Counted from the first letter of the stretch, positions 1,725-9,416 are shown. The stretch: DNA of 64,000 nt from a virus (IMGVR_UViG_3300044699_000054:1-64000), one strand, 5' to 3'. Translations and numbers: made by a program. Notes: generated by a model from the sequence alone, not told the origin.

Positions 1725-1806
1725 GCGCATCACGGCCGCACAGGCGTAGACAGTGGCACGGGTACGGGCAACCGTACCCGTGCGCTCGATACCAAGCGAT
1801 CCCCAC

Positions 1807-1841
1807 CGACAAAATGTGATCGGGTATGGTATCATGATACT
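1807..1841 (+). promoter_or_regulatory. promoter/operator element B: CGACAAAATGTG...perfect 12-bp palindrome GTATCATGATAC (1829-1840)
   Basis: Preceded by hairpin 1769-1794 and the TACCAAGCGA motif that is also found before element C. The motif GACAAAATGTG is shared with A. Confidence 0.5.
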
Positions 1842-2006
1842 AGCAGCCGGGGAAACCGGCTGCGTGGCCTGTCACGGCTAGCGCCGTGGCCACCCGAGTC
1901 CCGTACGGGGACACATGCCGCGTAACGCGTAGGCAGAGGGGAGGGCGTACCCGTGAGGGTAGCCGGGTCGCAATGCCCGCGACGGTCGTGGGCAGGAGGG
2001 AGCGTC

Positions 2007-2273
2007 ATGTACGCGTACGTCGATGTCCCGGTAACGATCACGCTGGCACTGCCGACTGATCTCGACCTCACGATTGAGGACATGATCAAGATGGTGCTGG
2101 TCGCGGTCACAGAATCGACACCCCCGGTGGTGGTTCTGCAAGCCGAGCCGCACGTAACACTGACAGACGAGGAGTTCGAAGCGAAGGCCCAGCCAGTGCT
2201 CGCCGCCATAAGGGAGGCGCGCATTGAGGTGGAAGCGATCCTGGCGAAAGCTGAGGCCGCGCACCTGAACTGA
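2007..2273 (+). CDS. hypothetical protein
   Basis: ATG at 2007 after CGACGGTCG (1980-1988) and RBS GGAGGGAG. First gene downstream of promoter/operator element B. Confidence 0.55.
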   Translation: MYAYVDVPVTITLALPTDLDLTIEDMIKMVLVAVTESTPPVVVLQAEPHVTLTDEEFEAKAQPVLAAIREARIEVEAILAKAEAAHLN

Positions 2274-2353
2274 GGATTCCGGCCGTACCCGTAGCGATAC
2301 GGGTACGGTGCGATGACAGGCGACGGTCGCCTGTCATGAGAGGAGCGACCAGC

Positions 2354-2614
2354 ATGTCAGACTACTCGCTGTCATGGACCGAGACGCGCTCACACCAGTA
2401 CGATATCTGCTTGCCTGTCTCCGAGGTGATCGAAGTTTTCGCCGATCACGCGCTCGACGTCCTCACGGACGCCATCACGGAAGCGATCGAAAATGCCACA
2501 TACGATCTCGACCGGATGGGTCCCGTTCTTGAGGCGTTGCGCGCGAAAGCGAAGGCCGTCCCCGACGACGACACGCTAGATGATGTCACTGACGTGACTG
2601 TGTACCTGGACTAG
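2354..2614 (+). CDS. hypothetical acidic protein
   Basis: ATG at 2354 after a GGTAC hairpin (2283-2308), CAGGCGACGGTCGCCTG and RBS GAGAGGAG. Confidence 0.55.
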   Translation: MSDYSLSWTETRSHQYDICLPVSEVIEVFADHALDVLTDAITEAIENATYDLDRMGPVLEALRAKAKAVPDDDTLDDVTDVTVYLD

Positions 2615-2686
2615 CTCAATGTGTCCGGTACGGGTGACCGTATCGGGCACGCAATACCGCGACGGTCGCGGTAGGAAGGGAGCGCC

Positions 2687-3139
2687 ATGCTCACCCATAA
2701 ATGTGCTCACTGCGGTCGCACTGGGGGGTCCGGCGGATGGTTCATCGGTACGGAGATCTTGTGTCAGTCCTTGCAGCAATGCTCTGTTGCGTCAAAAGGC
2801 TGCCAAGAGACATCGCCGTCCCGGTTGGTTCACTCGCCTACTCGCGCGACTGAGCGCATAACCGTGACCGTACCCGTGGCAACGCGGGTACGGTGCTCGA
2901 CTGTGGACGGTCCACAGTGGAAGGGAGCGCGCATCATGGCCATCATTGGCGTGATTCTGCTTGGCCTAGTCGTCAGTGCGGCAGGATCGTTAGCATTCGG
3001 ATGGGTATTTATGCTGCTCATTGGCGTGGTCCACGCTGAGTGGTTGCCTGCCCTGCCTACCATTGGATATTGGTGGGCCGTACTGATCACGTTCCTTCTA
3101 CGGGCAACACTGATGTCCGTAGACACGGACTTAGACTAA
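2687..3139 (+). CDS. zinc-ribbon-like N-terminal part fused in frame to a small 2-TM membrane protein; likely two genes (internal start 2935)
   Basis: One open frame. Module 1 (CGACGGTCG 2660-2668, RBS, ATG 2687) precedes the CAHCGRTGG part. A full second module (hairpin 2867-2892, GGACGGTCC 2905-2913, RBS, ATG 2935) lies inside the ORF immediately before the hydrophobic MAIIGVILLGLVV part. Confidence 0.4.
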   Translation: MLTHKCAHCGRTGGSGGWFIGTEILCQSLQQCSVASKGCQETSPSRLVHSPTRATERITVTVPVATRVRCSTVDGPQWKGARIMAIIGVILLGLVVSAAGSLAFGWVFMLLIGVVHAEWLPALPTIGYWWAVLITFLLRATLMSVDTDLD

Positions 3140-7590: not shown

Positions 7591-7674
7591 CTAGTCGGAC
7601 CGGGCGCACTTGACCGTGCGTCCGGTTCCTAGTCCTATGTCGACGGTCGACAATGGACGGAAGGGAGGTCGGTA

Positions 7675-8034
7675 ATGCAATCGCTACCGATCGAAGTGTT
7701 ACGGGCGTTGATGCCGGCCGTGCAAGCAATCAGCGCGCATCAACGTGCAGCGGTCCGAGAGATCGAGCTACCGCGCATAGACCGCAAGGGTATGGCAGCC
7801 GCACGCGCGGCCGGAGGTGGAAAGTACGCCTACGGCCATCGGGAGATCATGGCAGCCGTCGGGTACATATCGCACATCGATCCCGATGATGACGACGAGG
7901 ATGACTCGTGTGGTAACTGCGGCTACGATCCGTGCCGATGCGAGTGGCACTGTGCCAGCTGTGAAGCGGAGGAATGCGAGGGAGCAGATTGCGAATGCTC
8001 GTGTGGCTACTGTGACTGGGAAGCCGACGAGTAG
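7675..8034 (+). CDS. acidic, Cys-rich small protein
   Basis: TGTCGACGGTCGACA (7641-7649 core), RBS GGAAGGGAGG, ATG 7675. C-terminus DDDDEDDSCGNCGYDPCRCEWHCASCEAEECEGADCECSCGYCDWEADE. Confidence 0.55.
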   Translation: MQSLPIEVLRALMPAVQAISAHQRAAVREIELPRIDRKGMAAARAAGGGKYAYGHREIMAAVGYISHIDPDDDDEDDSCGNCGYDPCRCEWHCASCEAEECEGADCECSCGYCDWEADE

Positions 8035-8109
8035 GGACCGAGGCTGGGTGTCCACACCGGACACTCAGCCGCTAGCCTGTCGACGGTCGGCAGGTGAGGA
8101 AGGGGTACG

Positions 8110-9012
8110 ATGATGAGGAACCGAACGGTTTTCCCATCGGACCATGCCGGTTGGATAGCGTATCTCGATCGTGGCCGTCTCAAGACGAAGACGTTCGATC
8201 GACCAATCGGCAGTAGCCGGACCAAACGTGTGCATCGATTCGCCAACGGCGATGTTGGGCTACGGTATCATGCCACGTACTGTGTGATCTTCCACGCCGA
8301 CGGTACCGTCACGTACGACACGGGAGGATGGCACACCATCACCACAAAGCAATTCATCAATGCCTATGGACCGACTAGGGTTTGGTCGGACAAGGGGCAG
8401 CTTTTCTTGCCGGTGCATAACCCGAGCTACACACCGGCAAAGGTCCAGAAGTGTCGCGTATGCCACGGCAAGGCGGTATTGCCGTCATCGTGCTACGGAC
8501 CGCGTTATTGCTACGCCGCGTATGGCGATCGCCCGTGTGTGCACGGCGAAGTGATCAACCATCGTTACACTACCTGTCCCCACGGGAAGACCGAGGGACA
8601 TCCGGTGCCAGATATTGCATGCTATCGTTGCAATGGCACCGGGAAACGTGACTACGGCAGTAAGCCCATACACTTTGAGTGGACTGGCAGTGCCTATCGG
8701 TTCCACCCTGACGACGTGGAGCACGGCATCTATCCGGGTAATCTGTCCGGATCCGTAGCTACGTCAGTAAGCTATGGGCAGGCTGGCAACGTTCTAACCC
8801 GACTCATTCCGGGACTGGACGAGCGGGTTACGTACCCATGTACATGCTTCGGACATGGGTATGACCCGTTGAGGGTACGCGACATGATCATTCACCTGAA
8901 TGACAGCCATCATCCGGCCCATGAAACGGCCGACGTGTGGTCGCGTGAACGCATTGCCGATTGGCTGGAGACGTTGGATGTTGACCTGCGTTTTCCGACG
9001 CCTGCGGAGTGA
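8110..9012 (+). CDS. Cys/His-rich protein with DnaJ-type CxxCxGxG zinc-finger-like motifs
   Basis: Hairpin 8049-8070, CCTGTCGACGGTCGGCAGG (8081-8089 core), RBS GAGGAAGGGG, ATG 8110. Motifs CRVCHGK, CYRCNGTGK, CPHGKTEGH. Confidence 0.55.
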   Translation: MMRNRTVFPSDHAGWIAYLDRGRLKTKTFDRPIGSSRTKRVHRFANGDVGLRYHATYCVIFHADGTVTYDTGGWHTITTKQFINAYGPTRVWSDKGQLFLPVHNPSYTPAKVQKCRVCHGKAVLPSSCYGPRYCYAAYGDRPCVHGEVINHRYTTCPHGKTEGHPVPDIACYRCNGTGKRDYGSKPIHFEWTGSAYRFHPDDVEHGIYPGNLSGSVATSVSYGQAGNVLTRLIPGLDERVTYPCTCFGHGYDPLRVRDMIIHLNDSHHPAHETADVWSRERIADWLETLDVDLRFPTPAE

Positions 9013-9096
9013 GGTCGCCCGGTACCGGAGAGATCCGGTGCCGGGTACGAGGATGGTTGAAACGGTCAACCGTCCCTAGTGGAGAGAGGAACGACC

Positions 9097-9330
9097 ATGA
9101 ACCAGACAGCTACCACGACCGAGGCGCGTCCGGCAAACCCGATCATCGATGAGCTGCGCGCTGAGCTGCGCGATATCGAGATCGATGTACTGTCGGCCTA
9201 CACCCTTGCCGATGCAATCCGCGAGGGTGCCAGGGTGACCACGCAGGCCAATGGCTGGGGGTCCGGCCGCGAGGCTTGCGCGCTCTCAGCCGCCTACCTG
9301 ACGGCTCACGCGCGGGGTTGGATCGAGTAG
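9097..9330 (+). CDS. hypothetical protein
   Basis: Hairpin 9016-9048, variant palindrome GGTTGAAACGGTCAACC (9056-9071), RBS GGAGAGAGG, ATG 9097. Confidence 0.5.
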   Translation: MNQTATTTEARPANPIIDELRAELRDIEIDVLSAYTLADAIREGARVTTQANGWGSGREACALSAAYLTAHARGWIE

Positions 9331-9416
9331 CACACAGGTCGGATGTCCACACCGGACATCCGGCCGCGATACCGGGCGACGGTCGTCCGGCATCAGAGAG
9401 GAAGGGGAGGTGATCT

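What the first reader, a model, noticed from the sequence alone, without database searches (positions are those of the whole stretch)
1769..9360. Family of GGTAC-core hairpins paired with each start module
Upstream of most CGACGGTCG elements sits a second hairpin with a 9-12 bp stem built around GGTAC (CCGTACCCG-loop-CGGGTACGG at 2283, 2867, 3149, 4003, 6637; variants at 1769, 3508, 4303, 4687, 5662, 5893, 9016). There is no U-tract, so these are intergenic I-shaped terminator-like or processing hairpins. Together, hairpin 1, about 10 nt, hairpin 2, RBS, ATG forms a rigid cassette repeated through the early region. This could also mark boundaries of horizontally shuffled gene modules.
Basis: seen in the sequence. 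Interest (0 to 1): 0.6.

Follow-up and report, generated by a model that had tools for sequence, protein, structure and literature searches.

The report
Gene-end RNA hairpins in phage early operons
Almost every small gene in the first 10 kb of this uncultured phage genome ends in a very stable RNA hairpin, which with a second hairpin forms a repeated spacer that probably shapes and protects the messenger RNAs and is where genes are gained and lost.

Summary
The + strand of 1-10,000 carries 21 gene-end hairpins (H1), not 12. Stems are 10-13 bp (dG about -19 to -27 kcal/mol; z -4.0 to -6.8 for 20 tested). Fourteen have GNRA tetraloops, 14 contain GTAC, and none has a U-tract. Eighteen lie 4-9 nt, usually 4-5, upstream of the CGACGGTCG-apex hairpin (H2).

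H1 is selected as + strand RNA. Non-Watson-Crick stem pairs are 17 G.U to 0 A.C. The + strand folds better in 20 of 21. Ten of 11 stem changes between close strains keep pairing.

The same stop, H1, H2, SD, ATG cassette occurs in uncultured relatives. H1 sequence differs by lineage but is often built on GGYRCC.

Among three ~92-97% identical strains, three insertions or deletions were seen. Two are whole-gene differences ending in the H2 repeat. The third is a leader segment ending just upstream of an H1.

Most likely H1 is a 3'-end-defining and protecting stem-loop in an mRNA punctuation cassette, not an efficient terminator. This function is inferred, not shown.

It is a new variant of known kinds: T4 PeSL, T7 RNase III sites, Cluster K SAS/ESAS, and U-less actinobacterial 3'-end hairpins.

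The parts
566..595 (+). H1 hairpin after gene 324-560; 13 bp, loop GUGA; no GTAC
   Evidence: (z -6.4)
867..896 (+). H1 after gene 640-861; 13 bp, loop GUGA; GTAC in the 3' arm, U.G wobble opposite
1334..1359 (+). H1 after gene 934-1326; 10-12 bp; no GTAC
1756..1783 (+). H1 (GGTAC core, loop GCAA) 31 nt after gene 1404-1724; followed by promoter P2, not by H2
2283..2308 (+). H1, CCGTACCCGTA-GCGA-TACGGGTACGG
2621..2650 (+). H1, 13 bp, loop GUGA, two G.U wobbles; GTAC in the 5' arm
2867..2894 (+). H1, loop GCAA; lies inside the read-through ORF 2687-3139
3147..3172 (+). H1, loop GCAA, two G.U wobbles
3510..3535 (+). H1, loop GCGA, after gene 3218-3502; followed 43 nt later by a second H1
3579..3610 (+). 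H1 without GTAC, directly upstream of H2 3616-3636
4000..4025 (+). H1, CCGTACCCGTG-GCAA-CGCGGGTACGG
4311..4340 (+). H1, GGTACGGCCGGCA-GUGA-UGCUGGCCGUACC; core in the outer stem
4684..4713 (+). H1, 13 bp, loop GUGA, two G.U wobbles
5663..5690 (+). H1, CCGGTACCGGG-GUUGCG-CCCGGUACCGG, after gene 5472-5654; followed by promoter P3
5887..5914 (+). H1 at the end of the P3 leader, loop GCGA
6291..6320 (+). H1 without GTAC, 12 bp, hexaloop
6633..6660 (+). H1, GCCGTACCCGTA-GCAA-TACGGGTACGGC
7597..7628 (+). H1 without GTAC, 13 bp, hexaloop
8042..8070 (+). H1 without GTAC (GUGUCC-ACACC-GGACAC subtype)
9018..9045 (+). H1, CCCGGUACCGGA-GAGA-UCCGGUGCCGGG (the GGYRCC form)
9337..9365 (+). H1 without GTAC (same subtype as 8042)
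600..9391 (+). 19 H2 hairpins with apex (C/G)GA-CGG-UC(G/C), variable lower stem, ending 12-28 nt before the ATG: 600-622, 901-919, 1365-1387, 1974-1994, 2313-2337, 2655-2673, 2899-2919, 3178-3202, 3616-3636, 4031-4051, 4345-4365, 4719-4737, 5919-5939, 6329-6345, 6666-6684, 7638-7652, 8076-8094, 9051-9075, 9371-9391
245..307 (+). Promoter P1 (TGACAA-N18-TGgTATAGT) and an H2-like hairpin (282-307) that starts at the predicted transcript start
   Evidence: read from the sequence; fold
1806..1864 (+). Promoter P2 (CCGACA-N18-TATCAT with upstream TG) and a hairpin (1843-1864) at the predicted transcript start
5697..5748 (+). Promoter P3 (GCGACA-N18-TACACT with upstream TG) followed by a hairpin
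   Evidence: read from the sequence; fold; conserved in L128 and L129
9957..10002 (+). 15-bp hairpin with a T-rich tail (CCATCTTTCT) after the last gene. It is the only + strand site in 1-10,500 that passed the hairpin-plus-T-run terminator scan

Best explanation
H1 is an RNA stem-loop that forms on the + strand transcript at the 3' end of nearly every cistron in the putative early operons. The operons run from three sigma-70-like promoters. The genome is an uncultured siphovirus, probably of an Actinomycetota host.

H1 is the upstream half of a standard intercistronic cassette: stop codon, 4-16 nt, H1, a 4-5 nt single-stranded linker (usually GCGA or GCUA), H2, Shine-Dalgarno sequence, ATG.

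The most likely mechanism has three steps. (1) RNA polymerase largely reads through H1. There is no U-tract, and the terminating ribosome sits on the base of the stem. (2) The polycistronic RNA is cut in or near the short linker, or is degraded from the 3' end until it meets H1. (3) H1, a long G+C-rich stem usually capped by an extra-stable tetraloop, then acts as a 3' exonuclease barrier and 3'-end marker for the upstream message. H2 caps the 5' end of the downstream message and presents its ribosome-binding site.

Because the cassette is repeated about 18 times, it is also a substrate for homologous recombination, which adds and removes whole genes.

Shown here: the structure, its strand, its position, its conservation in relatives, and two whole-gene indels with junctions in the H2 repeat. 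Inferred: read-through, cleavage, and stabilisation. The role of the GGTAC/GGYRCC duplex motif is unexplained.
For: RNA of the + strand:
- A stem finder that accepts G.T and A.C equally finds 26 G.T to 3 A.C in window intergenic hairpins, and 17 to 0 in H1 alone. The G.T to A.C ratio in coding sequence of all eight loci pooled is only about 1.5 to 1.
- The + strand fold is more stable than its reverse complement in 20 of 21 H1 (mean -23.5 against -19.4 kcal/mol, Wilcoxon p = 1e-4).
- Fourteen of 15 tetraloops are GNRA (about 3% expected by chance). Relative L123 uses C(UACG)G.
- Between about 95%-identical strains, 9 of 11 stem-pair changes are Watson-Crick to G.U exchanges, 1 is a double compensatory change, and 1 is disruptive.
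- In L123, cassettes of a leftward operon lie on the opposite strand.

Structure over sequence: all 20 H1 analysed are different sequences, with 3-6 pair types at stem positions 2-12. Across phages 95.8% of cells pair against 63.6% in shuffles, and 21 of 21 pairs show changes on both sides.

Position: H1 starts 4-16 nt after the stop in 17 of 21. The spacer to H2 is 4-5 nt in 16 of 18 pairs.

Against efficient termination: at most 3 U follow any H1. About 18 H1 lie inside three operons. A hairpin with a T-rich tail appears only after the last gene.

H2 as a 5' cap: after promoters P1 and P2 a hairpin begins at the predicted transcript start. A cut in the linker would create the same 5' architecture.

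Literature context: mycobacterial RNA polymerase needs a U-tract to terminate (PMC3993855). Structured 3' ends lacking U in Streptomyces show more read-through than U-rich ones (PMC8269248). Mycobacterial RNase E cuts 5' of cytidines, with sites concentrated in intergenic regions and 5' UTRs (PMC10641625). Sixteen of 18 linkers contain a C.

Recombination: gene 3654-3992 is absent from L128, with the junction inside the H2 repeat. L128 and L129 carry an extra 144-aa gene that begins at the end of CGACGGTCG (5933). L129 lacks a roughly 145-nt leader segment (about 5741-5885) that ends just upstream of H1 5887.
Against: No transcript data exist for this phage, and its host is unknown, so read-through, cleavage and stabilisation are all untested.

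Hairpins without a U-tail were reported to terminate in the early region of Streptomyces phage phiC31 (Ingham et al. 1995, Nucleic Acids Res 23:370). That paper could not be read here and is cited from memory.

The model does not explain why the stem carries a GGTAC/GGYRCC motif conserved across lineages, nor why the H2 apex is conserved. Both features hint at a sequence-specific factor.

The linker sequences fit the published RNase E preference only loosely.

The covariation alignment was fitted to the model structure and therefore leans towards it.
Confidence: 0.45

Rival explanations
1. H1 are factor-independent, U-less ('I-shaped') terminators or attenuators. Each stops a fraction of polymerases, producing a graded fall in expression along each operon and insulating the operons from one another.
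For: H1 are stable G+C-rich hairpins just after stop codons. H1 at 1756 and 5663 stand alone immediately upstream of promoters P2 and P3, where a terminator would be expected. Structured 3' ends lacking U are common in Streptomyces (353 of 535 structured ends, PMC8269248). There is a phiC31 early-region precedent (Ingham et al. 1995, cited from memory).
Against: There are up to 8 H1 in series between a promoter and the last gene. Even 30% termination at each would leave about 6% of transcripts. Mycobacterial RNA polymerase did not terminate without a U-tract in vitro (PMC3993855). H1 begins 4-16 nt after the stop codon, within reach of the terminating ribosome, which should hinder hairpin folding behind a coupled polymerase (inference). 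The last gene is followed by a different hairpin with a T-rich tail.
Confidence: 0.25
2. H1 and H2 are binding sites for a sequence-specific, probably dimeric, phage or host factor. Candidates are an RNase III-like nuclease or an RNA-binding regulator. The factor would recognise the pseudo-symmetric GGYRCC duplex in H1 and the A-CGG-U apex of H2, and would switch early mRNAs on or off as a class.
For: GGYRCC density is about 3 to 9 times higher in intergenic spacers than in coding sequence in all eight loci examined. The G-U-R-C-C positions are the best-conserved stem columns across phages. GGGTACGG occurs in either arm, as expected for recognition of a duplex. The H2 apex is identical in lineages whose proteins are about 50% identical. 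An ACCGT box at stop codons is complementary to the H2 loop.
Against: Seven of 21 H1 in the window lack the motif, and more distant relatives (L127, L131-L133) vary both motifs. Within-genome homogenisation by recombination could maintain shared sequence without any function. No RNA-binding or nuclease domain was found in 20 of the early proteins or in the DUF2637 protein. GGTACC is over-represented genome-wide (41 against 13 expected).
Confidence: 0.15
3. The cassettes are mainly recombination modules, or selfish repeats, that persist because they spread genes. Any RNA role would be incidental.
For: Two whole-gene differences among three close strains have junctions in the H2 repeat, and a third indel ends just upstream of an H1. 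Early gene content is hypervariable while the cassette is constant: 2 to 7 of 22 window genes are shared with relatives at about 50% identity. In relative L137/L023 the copies are nearly identical over about 95 bp. The T4 PeSL cassettes are a precedent (PMC2839356, PMC4122927).
Against: Recombination needs sequence identity, not hairpins. It does not explain the 17 to 0 G.U bias, the GNRA and UNCG loops, the compensatory changes, the fixed distances to the stop codon and Shine-Dalgarno sequence, or the fact that all 20 H1 analysed in the window differ in sequence.
Confidence: 0.1
4. The elements act at the DNA level: as cruciforms or operators for a repressor (as with stoperators or phiC31 CIR sites), or as hairpin promoters for a virion RNA polymerase as in phage N4.
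For: The sequences are palindromic. A conserved ribbon-helix-helix gene (5472-5654) lies in the region. A giant ORF of at least 2,986 aa with no recognisable domains lies next to the head genes.
Against: G.T to A.C asymmetry of 17 to 0 in H1 shows selection on the non-template strand or its RNA, not on duplex DNA and not on the template-strand hairpin that N4 polymerase uses. H1 sequence varies with compensatory changes. RNA-specific stable tetraloops are used. The giant ORF has no match to any solved structure, N4 polymerase included.
Confidence: 0.03

Closest known systems
PeSL (promoter-early stem-loop) cassettes of T4-like phages (Arbiol et al. 2010, PMC2839356; Comeau et al. 2014, PMC4122927)
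   Same: Short composite regulatory cassettes are repeated between small, mostly ORFan early genes in a hyperplastic region. Each contains a stem-loop after the upstream gene. Recombination between copies produces gene insertions, deletions and replacements between closely related phages.
   Different: A PeSL pairs the stem-loop with a strong sigma-70 promoter, and its stem-loop is an effective terminator. Here no promoter lies in the cassette (and inspection). The second element is another hairpin abutting the Shine-Dalgarno sequence, and there are only three promoters in 10 kb. The host group and the sequences are unrelated.
RNase III processing sites between phage T7 early genes (textbook knowledge)
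   Same: Structured elements sit between successive cistrons of a polycistronic early transcript. After cutting, each message ends in a protective 3' hairpin.
   Different: T7 sites are single irregular stems of about 20 bp with an internal loop, cut within the stem. H1 are perfect 10-13 bp stems with tetraloops, paired with a second hairpin across a 4-5 nt linker. No cleavage has been shown here.
SAS and ESAS repeats of Cluster K mycobacteriophages (Pope et al. 2011, PMC3203893)
   Same: Both are conserved repeats tied to translation starts of non-structural genes in one orientation. An inverted repeat with a variable spacer lies just upstream of a conserved motif containing the Shine-Dalgarno sequence. 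Consensus differs between lineages, and function is unknown.
   Different: The SAS is a fixed 13-mer (GGGATAGGAGCCC) and the ESAS arms are 17 bp. No end-of-gene hairpin equivalent to H1 was described. The sequences are unrelated. Here pairing, wobble bias and covariation support an RNA structure.
U-less ('I-shaped', HS-U-lack) 3'-end hairpins of Actinobacteria (PMC8269248), and the poly-U-less terminators of the phiC31 early region (Ingham et al. 1995, cited from memory)
   Same: Stable G+C-rich stem-loops downstream of stop codons with fewer than 3 U in the next 8 nt.
   Different: Here they are serial, one per gene, share sequence motifs, and are coupled at a fixed distance to a second hairpin. 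Whether they generate 3' ends is unknown.
Intercistronic mRNA stabiliser hairpins (REP elements in malE-malF; puf operon hairpins of Rhodobacter; own knowledge)
   Same: Stable stem-loops between cistrons that block 3' to 5' exonucleases and set differential stability of operon segments.
   Different: Those cases involve one or a few sites per operon and have no partner 5' hairpin. Here the arrangement is systematic for every gene.

Membership tests
Canonical intrinsic (hairpin plus U-tract) terminator | G+C-rich hairpin | tested here: met
   10-13 bp stems, dG -19 to -27 kcal/mol for the bare hairpins
Canonical intrinsic (hairpin plus U-tract) terminator | Run of U (at least 5 in 8 nt) immediately 3' of the stem | tested here: not met
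   0-3 T in the 8 nt after each of the 21 H1. The terminator scan reports only 9957-9992 on the + strand.
U-less ('I-shaped', HS-U-lack) actinobacterial 3'-end hairpin | Highly structured stem-loop downstream of a stop codon with fewer than 3 U in the following 8 nt | tested here: met
   20 of 21 H1 have fewer than 3 T. Criteria taken from PMC8269248.
U-less ('I-shaped', HS-U-lack) actinobacterial 3'-end hairpin | A transcript 3' end maps at the hairpin in vivo | not testable with these tools
   No transcript data; the phage is uncultured.
T4-type PeSL cassette | Stem-loop combined with a sigma-70-like early promoter in one cassette | tested here: not met
   The promoter scan finds only P2 on the + strand. 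By inspection only 6 of 18 cassettes contain even a TANNNT hexamer, and at no fixed position.
T4-type PeSL cassette | Repeated between small variable genes, with recombination between copies giving indels between close relatives | tested here: met
Cluster K SAS/ESAS | 13-bp SAS GGGATAGGAGCCC at the translation start | tested here: not met
   The conserved start-proximal motif here is GGAAGGGAG preceded by CGACGGTCG.
Cluster K SAS/ESAS | Imperfect 17-bp inverted repeats with a 4-13 bp spacer just upstream of the SAS | tested here: not met
   H2 arms are 6-11 bp around a 3-nt loop, and H1 is a separate element further upstream.
T7-type RNase III site | Intercistronic position in a polycistronic early transcript | tested here: met
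   18 cassettes lie between genes of three operons. That these operons are early is inferred from position and promoter type.
T7-type RNase III site | About 20-bp irregular stem with an internal loop, cleaved by RNase III | tested here: not met
   Stems are perfect, 10-13 bp, capped by a tetraloop. Cleavage could not be tested.
N4-type hairpin promoter | Hairpin forms on the template strand (5-7 bp stem, 3-nt loop with a central purine) | tested here: not met
   The structure is favoured on the non-template strand: G.T to A.C is 17 to 0, and the + strand is more stable in 20 of 21. H1 stems are 10-13 bp with 4-6 nt loops.
DNA operator repeats (Cluster A stoperators; phiC31 CIR) | Sequence-conserved duplex DNA site, with no requirement for intrastrand pairing | tested here: not met
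   H1 sequences all differ, but pairing is kept by compensatory and wobble changes.
Any Rfam family | Match at the curated gathering score | tested here: not met
   0 matches in the whole window.

The most novel reading that the evidence does not exclude
H1, H2 and the stop-codon ACCGU box may form one dedicated phage mRNA punctuation signal read by a sequence-specific factor. The factor would recognise the pseudo-symmetric GGYRCC duplex in H1 and the A-CGG-U loop of H2, which can also pair with the upstream ACCGU box across H1. It would process, stabilise or silence all early messages as a class. That would be a new class of cis-acting RNA element that makes any captured gene 'plug and play'.
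Probability: 0.15. Interest if true: 0.75.

Novelty: new variant of a known kind. Interest (0 to 1): 0.5.

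Why it matters
If the model holds, a whole clade of soil phages known only from metagenomes packages each early gene in a standard RNA frame, with a 3' protective hairpin, a short linker and a 5' hairpin next to the ribosome-binding site.

That frame would explain two things. Dozens of unrelated ORFan genes could be expressed reliably from only three promoters. The early region could also turn over quickly, because the repeats themselves are recombination sites.

It also offers a natural test set of about 20 sequence-distinct hairpins per genome for the unsettled question of what U-less hairpins do in high-G+C bacteria: terminate transcription, mark processing sites, or block exonucleases. 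The same set could supply compact insulator parts for expression design in actinomycetes.

Tried and rejected
- Rfam scan of the window at gathering thresholds: no match.
- Megablast of 1-10,000 against isolated phages: no match. tblastn of the DUF2637 protein against the same set: no match. Distant blastn of one cassette: only chance hits in Rhizobium phages.
- Exact-pattern scan of viral contigs for CCGTACCCG-N4-8-CGGGTACGG: six single, unrelated hits.
- Single-protein search for related loci found nothing. It worked only through the search for homologous proteins followed by the look-up of encoding contigs.
- Pfam on 20 early proteins: nothing significant. There are weak CopG-like hits for 5472-5654, and DUF2637 for 4752-5453.
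- Idea that TACGGT in the H1 3' arm is a TANNNT -10 element, which would make the cassette PeSL-like: only 4 H1 carry it, plus 2 linkers with TAGCCT, at no fixed position. Rejected.
- N4-like hairpin promoter read by the giant ORF product: rejected on strand asymmetry and the absence of any match to solved structures.
- MAFFT alignment of H1 copies aligns the GGTAC sequence rather than the structure. It was unusable for pair counts, so a covariance-model alignment was used instead.
- Literature search for the motif strings returned only primers.
- Ingham et al. 1995 could not be retrieved.
- The genome-contig scan gave only about 35%-identical DUF2637 homologues in Actinomycetota and Methylomirabilota MAGs, so no host was identified.

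Full report
WHAT THE WINDOW IS

The 64 kb window is a tailed-phage genome. It encodes a major head protein (52488-54221, minus strand; phrog_777, E = 4e-122), a tape measure protein and an endolysin. The head protein is at most 41% identical to those of Actinoplanes, Microbacterium, Gordonia and Rhodococcus phages. No isolated phage matches at the DNA level. The host is therefore probably an actinomycete, but that is an inference.

The first 10 kb contains about 22 small + strand genes. Only two have even a weak family assignment. Three related sigma-70-like promoters with an upstream TG lie at about 245-274, 1806-1835 and 5697-5726 (sequence; one search detects P2). After the last gene there is one hairpin with a T-rich tail, at 9957-10002.

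CHECK OF THE OBSERVATION

Folding every intergenic spacer and two independent stem finders give 21 end-of-gene hairpins (H1).

- Stems are 10-13 bp.
- Fifteen have 4-nt loops, and 14 of those are GNRA (GUGA 5, GCAA 5, GCGA 3, GAGA 1).
- Seven occupy the same position without GTAC.

Twenty were tested against dinucleotide shuffles. They fold at -21.3 to -28.9 kcal/mol with z-scores of -4.0 to -6.8.

Windows of 44 nt that fold at -20 kcal/mol or better number 50 in the first 10 kb and 55 in the remaining 54 kb. GGGTACGG occurs 13 times, all in the first 10 kb. GTAC is eight times denser in H1 than in the window as a whole. CGACGGTCG occurs 16 times against 0.87 expected.

Each H1 is followed by 0-3 T in the next 8 nt, so the absence of a U-tract is confirmed.

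Geometry: H1 starts 4-16 nt after the stop codon in 17 of 21. H2 ends 12-28 nt before the ATG, directly against the Shine-Dalgarno sequence.

Three GTAC hairpins are not followed by an H2. Those at 1756 and 5663 stand just upstream of promoters P2 and P3. The one at 3510 is followed by a second H1.

RNA OR DNA, AND WHICH STRAND

I used a stem finder that accepts G.T and A.C equally, so it has no strand bias. Non-Watson-Crick pairs in window intergenic hairpins are 26 G.T to 3 A.C, and 17 to 0 in H1 alone. In coding sequence of all eight loci pooled, the same finder gives about 1.5 to 1.

The + strand RNA fold beats the reverse complement in 20 of 21 H1, with means of -23.5 and -19.4 kcal/mol (p = 1e-4).

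The loops are the RNA-specific extra-stable GNRA type. One relative uses C(UACG)G instead.

Two environmental strains about 95% identical to the window (L128, L129) differ at 11 stem pairs. Nine are exchanges between Watson-Crick and G.U pairs, one is a double compensatory change (C-G to A-U), and one is disruptive. Two of three loop changes keep GNRA.

In relative L123 a leftward operon carries its cassettes on the other strand.

Together these results show selection on the transcript. They argue against cruciform DNA, duplex operators and template-strand hairpin promoters.

RELATIVES

The only widely shared early protein, a DUF2637 membrane protein (4752-5453), led to contigs from soil, rhizosphere and other metagenomes. 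A pattern scan led to one IMG/VR contig.

Relatives at about 45-52% protein identity (L123-L125, L126, L127, L130-L133, and the IMG/VR contig held as L011, L023 and L137) have the same layout: small genes separated by spacers of 60-95 nt. The two-hairpin form is regular in L123, L126, L130 and the IMG/VR contig. It is less regular in L127 and L131-L133, where 4-10 of 8-15 spacers fold into two hairpins.

The H2 apex A-CGG-U is identical or nearly so in several lineages: CGACGGUCG in L123, L130 and the IMG/VR contig, and GAACGGUUC in L126. It drifts in more distant ones.

H1 has a different consensus in each phage:
- CCGUACCCG...CGGGUACGG in the window
- CGGGCACCGUC...GACGGUGCCCG in the IMG/VR contig
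- GGCCGGUGCC-UACG-GGUACCGGCC in L123
- CCUGGUGCCAGG...CUGGUACCAGG in L126

These usually contain GGYRCC, which is about 3 to 9 times denser in the spacers than in coding sequence in every locus. The GGTAC core is therefore the local form of a clade-wide duplex motif. It is not a private feature of this genome, and it is not essential for every copy.

A covariance model built from five window cassettes recovers about 18 cassettes in the window, all on the + strand and all at or below 9395. It recovers about 100 more in the relatives. On that alignment 95.8% of cells pair, against 63.6% in shuffles and 32-47% when partners are slid. All 21 pairs show changes on both sides. The caveat is that the alignment was fitted to the model structure.

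GENE SHUFFLING

Early gene content is extremely variable. Only 7 of 22 window genes have a homologue in L123, and only 2 in the IMG/VR relative. One shared gene sits on the other side of the DUF2637 gene.

Among three strains that are 92-97% identical there are three indels:
1. L128 lacks window 3633-4014, that is one complete unit of H2, Shine-Dalgarno sequence, gene 3654-3992 and H1. The junction lies inside the repeated CTGGCGACGGTCGCC.
2. L128 and L129 carry an extra 144-aa gene. Homology to the window breaks exactly at the end of CGACGGTCG (5933) and resumes at the next cassette.
3. L129 lacks a roughly 145-nt leader segment (about 5741-5885) that ends just upstream of H1 5887.

This is the same behaviour described for PeSL cassettes in T4-like phages (PMC2839356, PMC4122927).

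MECHANISM

Efficient termination at H1 is unlikely, for four reasons.
- There is no U-tract.
- About 18 copies lie inside three operons, up to eight in series.
- The stem base lies within reach of the ribosome terminating 4-16 nt upstream.
- The end of the last operon uses a different hairpin with a T-rich tail.

Mycobacterial RNA polymerase requires a U-tract in vitro (PMC3993855). In Streptomyces, structured 3' ends lacking U are common but leakier than U-rich ones, and they may be processing products (PMC8269248).

The tightly constrained 4-5 nt linker between two very stable hairpins fits a punctuation model. A cut in the linker, or 3' exonuclease trimming back to H1, would leave the upstream message ending in H1 with almost no single-stranded tail. 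The downstream message would begin with H2 almost at its 5' end. Short tails and 5'-terminal stem-loops are known to protect bacterial mRNAs (my own knowledge).

A point in favour: the primary transcripts from P1 and P2 are predicted to start exactly at the base of a hairpin, at 282 (H2-like) and at 1843. That is the same 5' architecture a linker cut would create.

Sixteen of 18 linkers contain a cytidine, and mycobacterial RNase E cuts 5' of cytidines, mostly in intergenic regions and 5' UTRs (PMC10641625). The fit to that preference is loose.

I put this model at about 0.45, partial terminators at 0.25, a dedicated sequence-specific factor at 0.15, mainly recombination modules at 0.10, and DNA-level roles at 0.03. 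The conserved GGYRCC duplex, the conserved H2 apex, and an ACCGU box at stop codons that is complementary to the H2 loop are not explained by the favoured model. They keep the factor hypothesis alive.

COMPARISON WITH KNOWN SYSTEMS AND NOVELTY

The cassette works like a T4 PeSL as a repeated intergenic regulatory unit that drives indels, but it lacks the PeSL promoter. It resembles T7 RNase III sites in position but not in shape. It resembles Cluster K SAS/ESAS (PMC3203893) in being tied to translation starts of non-structural genes, but the sequences differ, and SAS/ESAS has no end-of-gene hairpin. H1 meets the sequence definition of U-less actinobacterial 3'-end hairpins.

There is no Rfam match. 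No isolated phage carries the cassette. No literature hit was found for the motifs.

I rate it a new variant of known kinds, in a phage clade known only from metagenomes. Interest is moderate (0.5). The structure and its evolutionary behaviour are well supported, but the molecular function is not tested.

Noticed in passing
window 2687-3139: The ORF starting at ATG 2687 reads in frame through a complete H1-H2 cassette (2867-2921) into the next gene (ATG 2936, a 67-aa hydrophobic protein). In strain L128 the upstream gene is 57 aa and ends at the TAA that corresponds to 2859-2861. The window therefore carries one extra base somewhere in 2687-2858, which may be real or an assembly error. A G6 run at 2723-2728 is one candidate position, but the indel itself was not located.
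   Followed up: partly
window 5957-6284: The gene after promoter P3 looks frameshifted. ATG 5957 gives a 31-aa product that reads like a signal peptide. The overlapping frame 6012-6284 continues with a lipobox-like LVIAC and a Cys-rich domain.
   Followed up: no
stop codons in L123, L130, L137, L131, L133 and window 859, 1324, 2851, 4665: An A(C/U)CGU box, often as UGACCGUCGC, overlaps or follows the stop codon. Counts are 15 of 24 spacers in L123, 10 of 13 in L130 and 4 of 17 in the window, against about 0.05 per 15 nt in coding sequence. It is complementary to the H2 apex ACGGU. Minimum-free-energy folds often pair the two across H1, which gives a possible alternative structure or pseudoknot.
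   Followed up: partly
window 245-307, 1806-1864, 5697-5748: The three promoters share GACAAAAT(G/A)TG and a TGn-extended -10 followed by GATAC. Each is followed by a hairpin that starts at the predicted transcript start. The -10 regions lie inside short palindromes (GGTATAGTGATACC, GTATCATGATAC).
   Followed up: partly
window 11430-11745: Four exact and two one-mismatch copies of TTGTTCCTG flank a very A+T-rich stretch (about 11560-11690) in a gene-poor region. This is a candidate replication origin with iterons.
   Followed up: partly
window 10975-10997 and 11863-11892: Short tandem repeats of (T)GCTGGTACC form strong hairpins on either side of the putative origin region. GGTACC is over-represented in the whole window, 41 against 13 expected.
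   Followed up: partly
window 55037-63997 (minus strand): A giant ORF of at least 2,986 aa runs off the window end, just upstream of the head gene. It has no Pfam family and no match to any solved structure. Its only hit is a weak match to phrog_3162, of unknown function.
   Followed up: partly
window 6706-7590: A 294-aa protein is made largely of about 15-nt (5-aa) repeats of the type (R/D)(D/E)G(F/Y)(D/N). TRF finds periods of 15 and 45 at 7137-7427. The repeat DNA accounts for the GGGTACG strings found inside this gene.
   Followed up: partly
window 4752-5654; L126, L137: The DUF2637 membrane-protein gene is followed by a small ribbon-helix-helix (CopG-like) gene in the window, L137 and L126 (read from the translated sequence). 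In the window the two genes are separated by only 18 nt with no H1/H2 cassette, which makes this the one invariant module of the early region.
   Followed up: partly
window 31-60 versus L023 (reverse strand) about 10010-9985: GGGTTATGTACCCCTACAGAGGAGTGAG at the window's left end resembles GGGTACGTACCCCTGTAGAGTGAGG, which in the relative lies internally, downstream of the early operon. It may be a conserved regulatory site, and it hints that the window start is not the same genome point in both assemblies.
   Followed up: no
window 52441-52484 (minus strand): A strong hairpin (-30 kcal/mol) lies about 4 nt after the major head protein stop codon. It also lacks a U-tract and is followed by the next gene's ribosome-binding site. 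U-less gene-end hairpins are therefore not confined to the early region.
   Followed up: no
window 3510-3610: Two H1-type hairpins lie in tandem, 43 nt apart, with no gene between them. This arrangement is conserved in L128. It may be the scar of an earlier cassette-mediated gene deletion.
   Followed up: no
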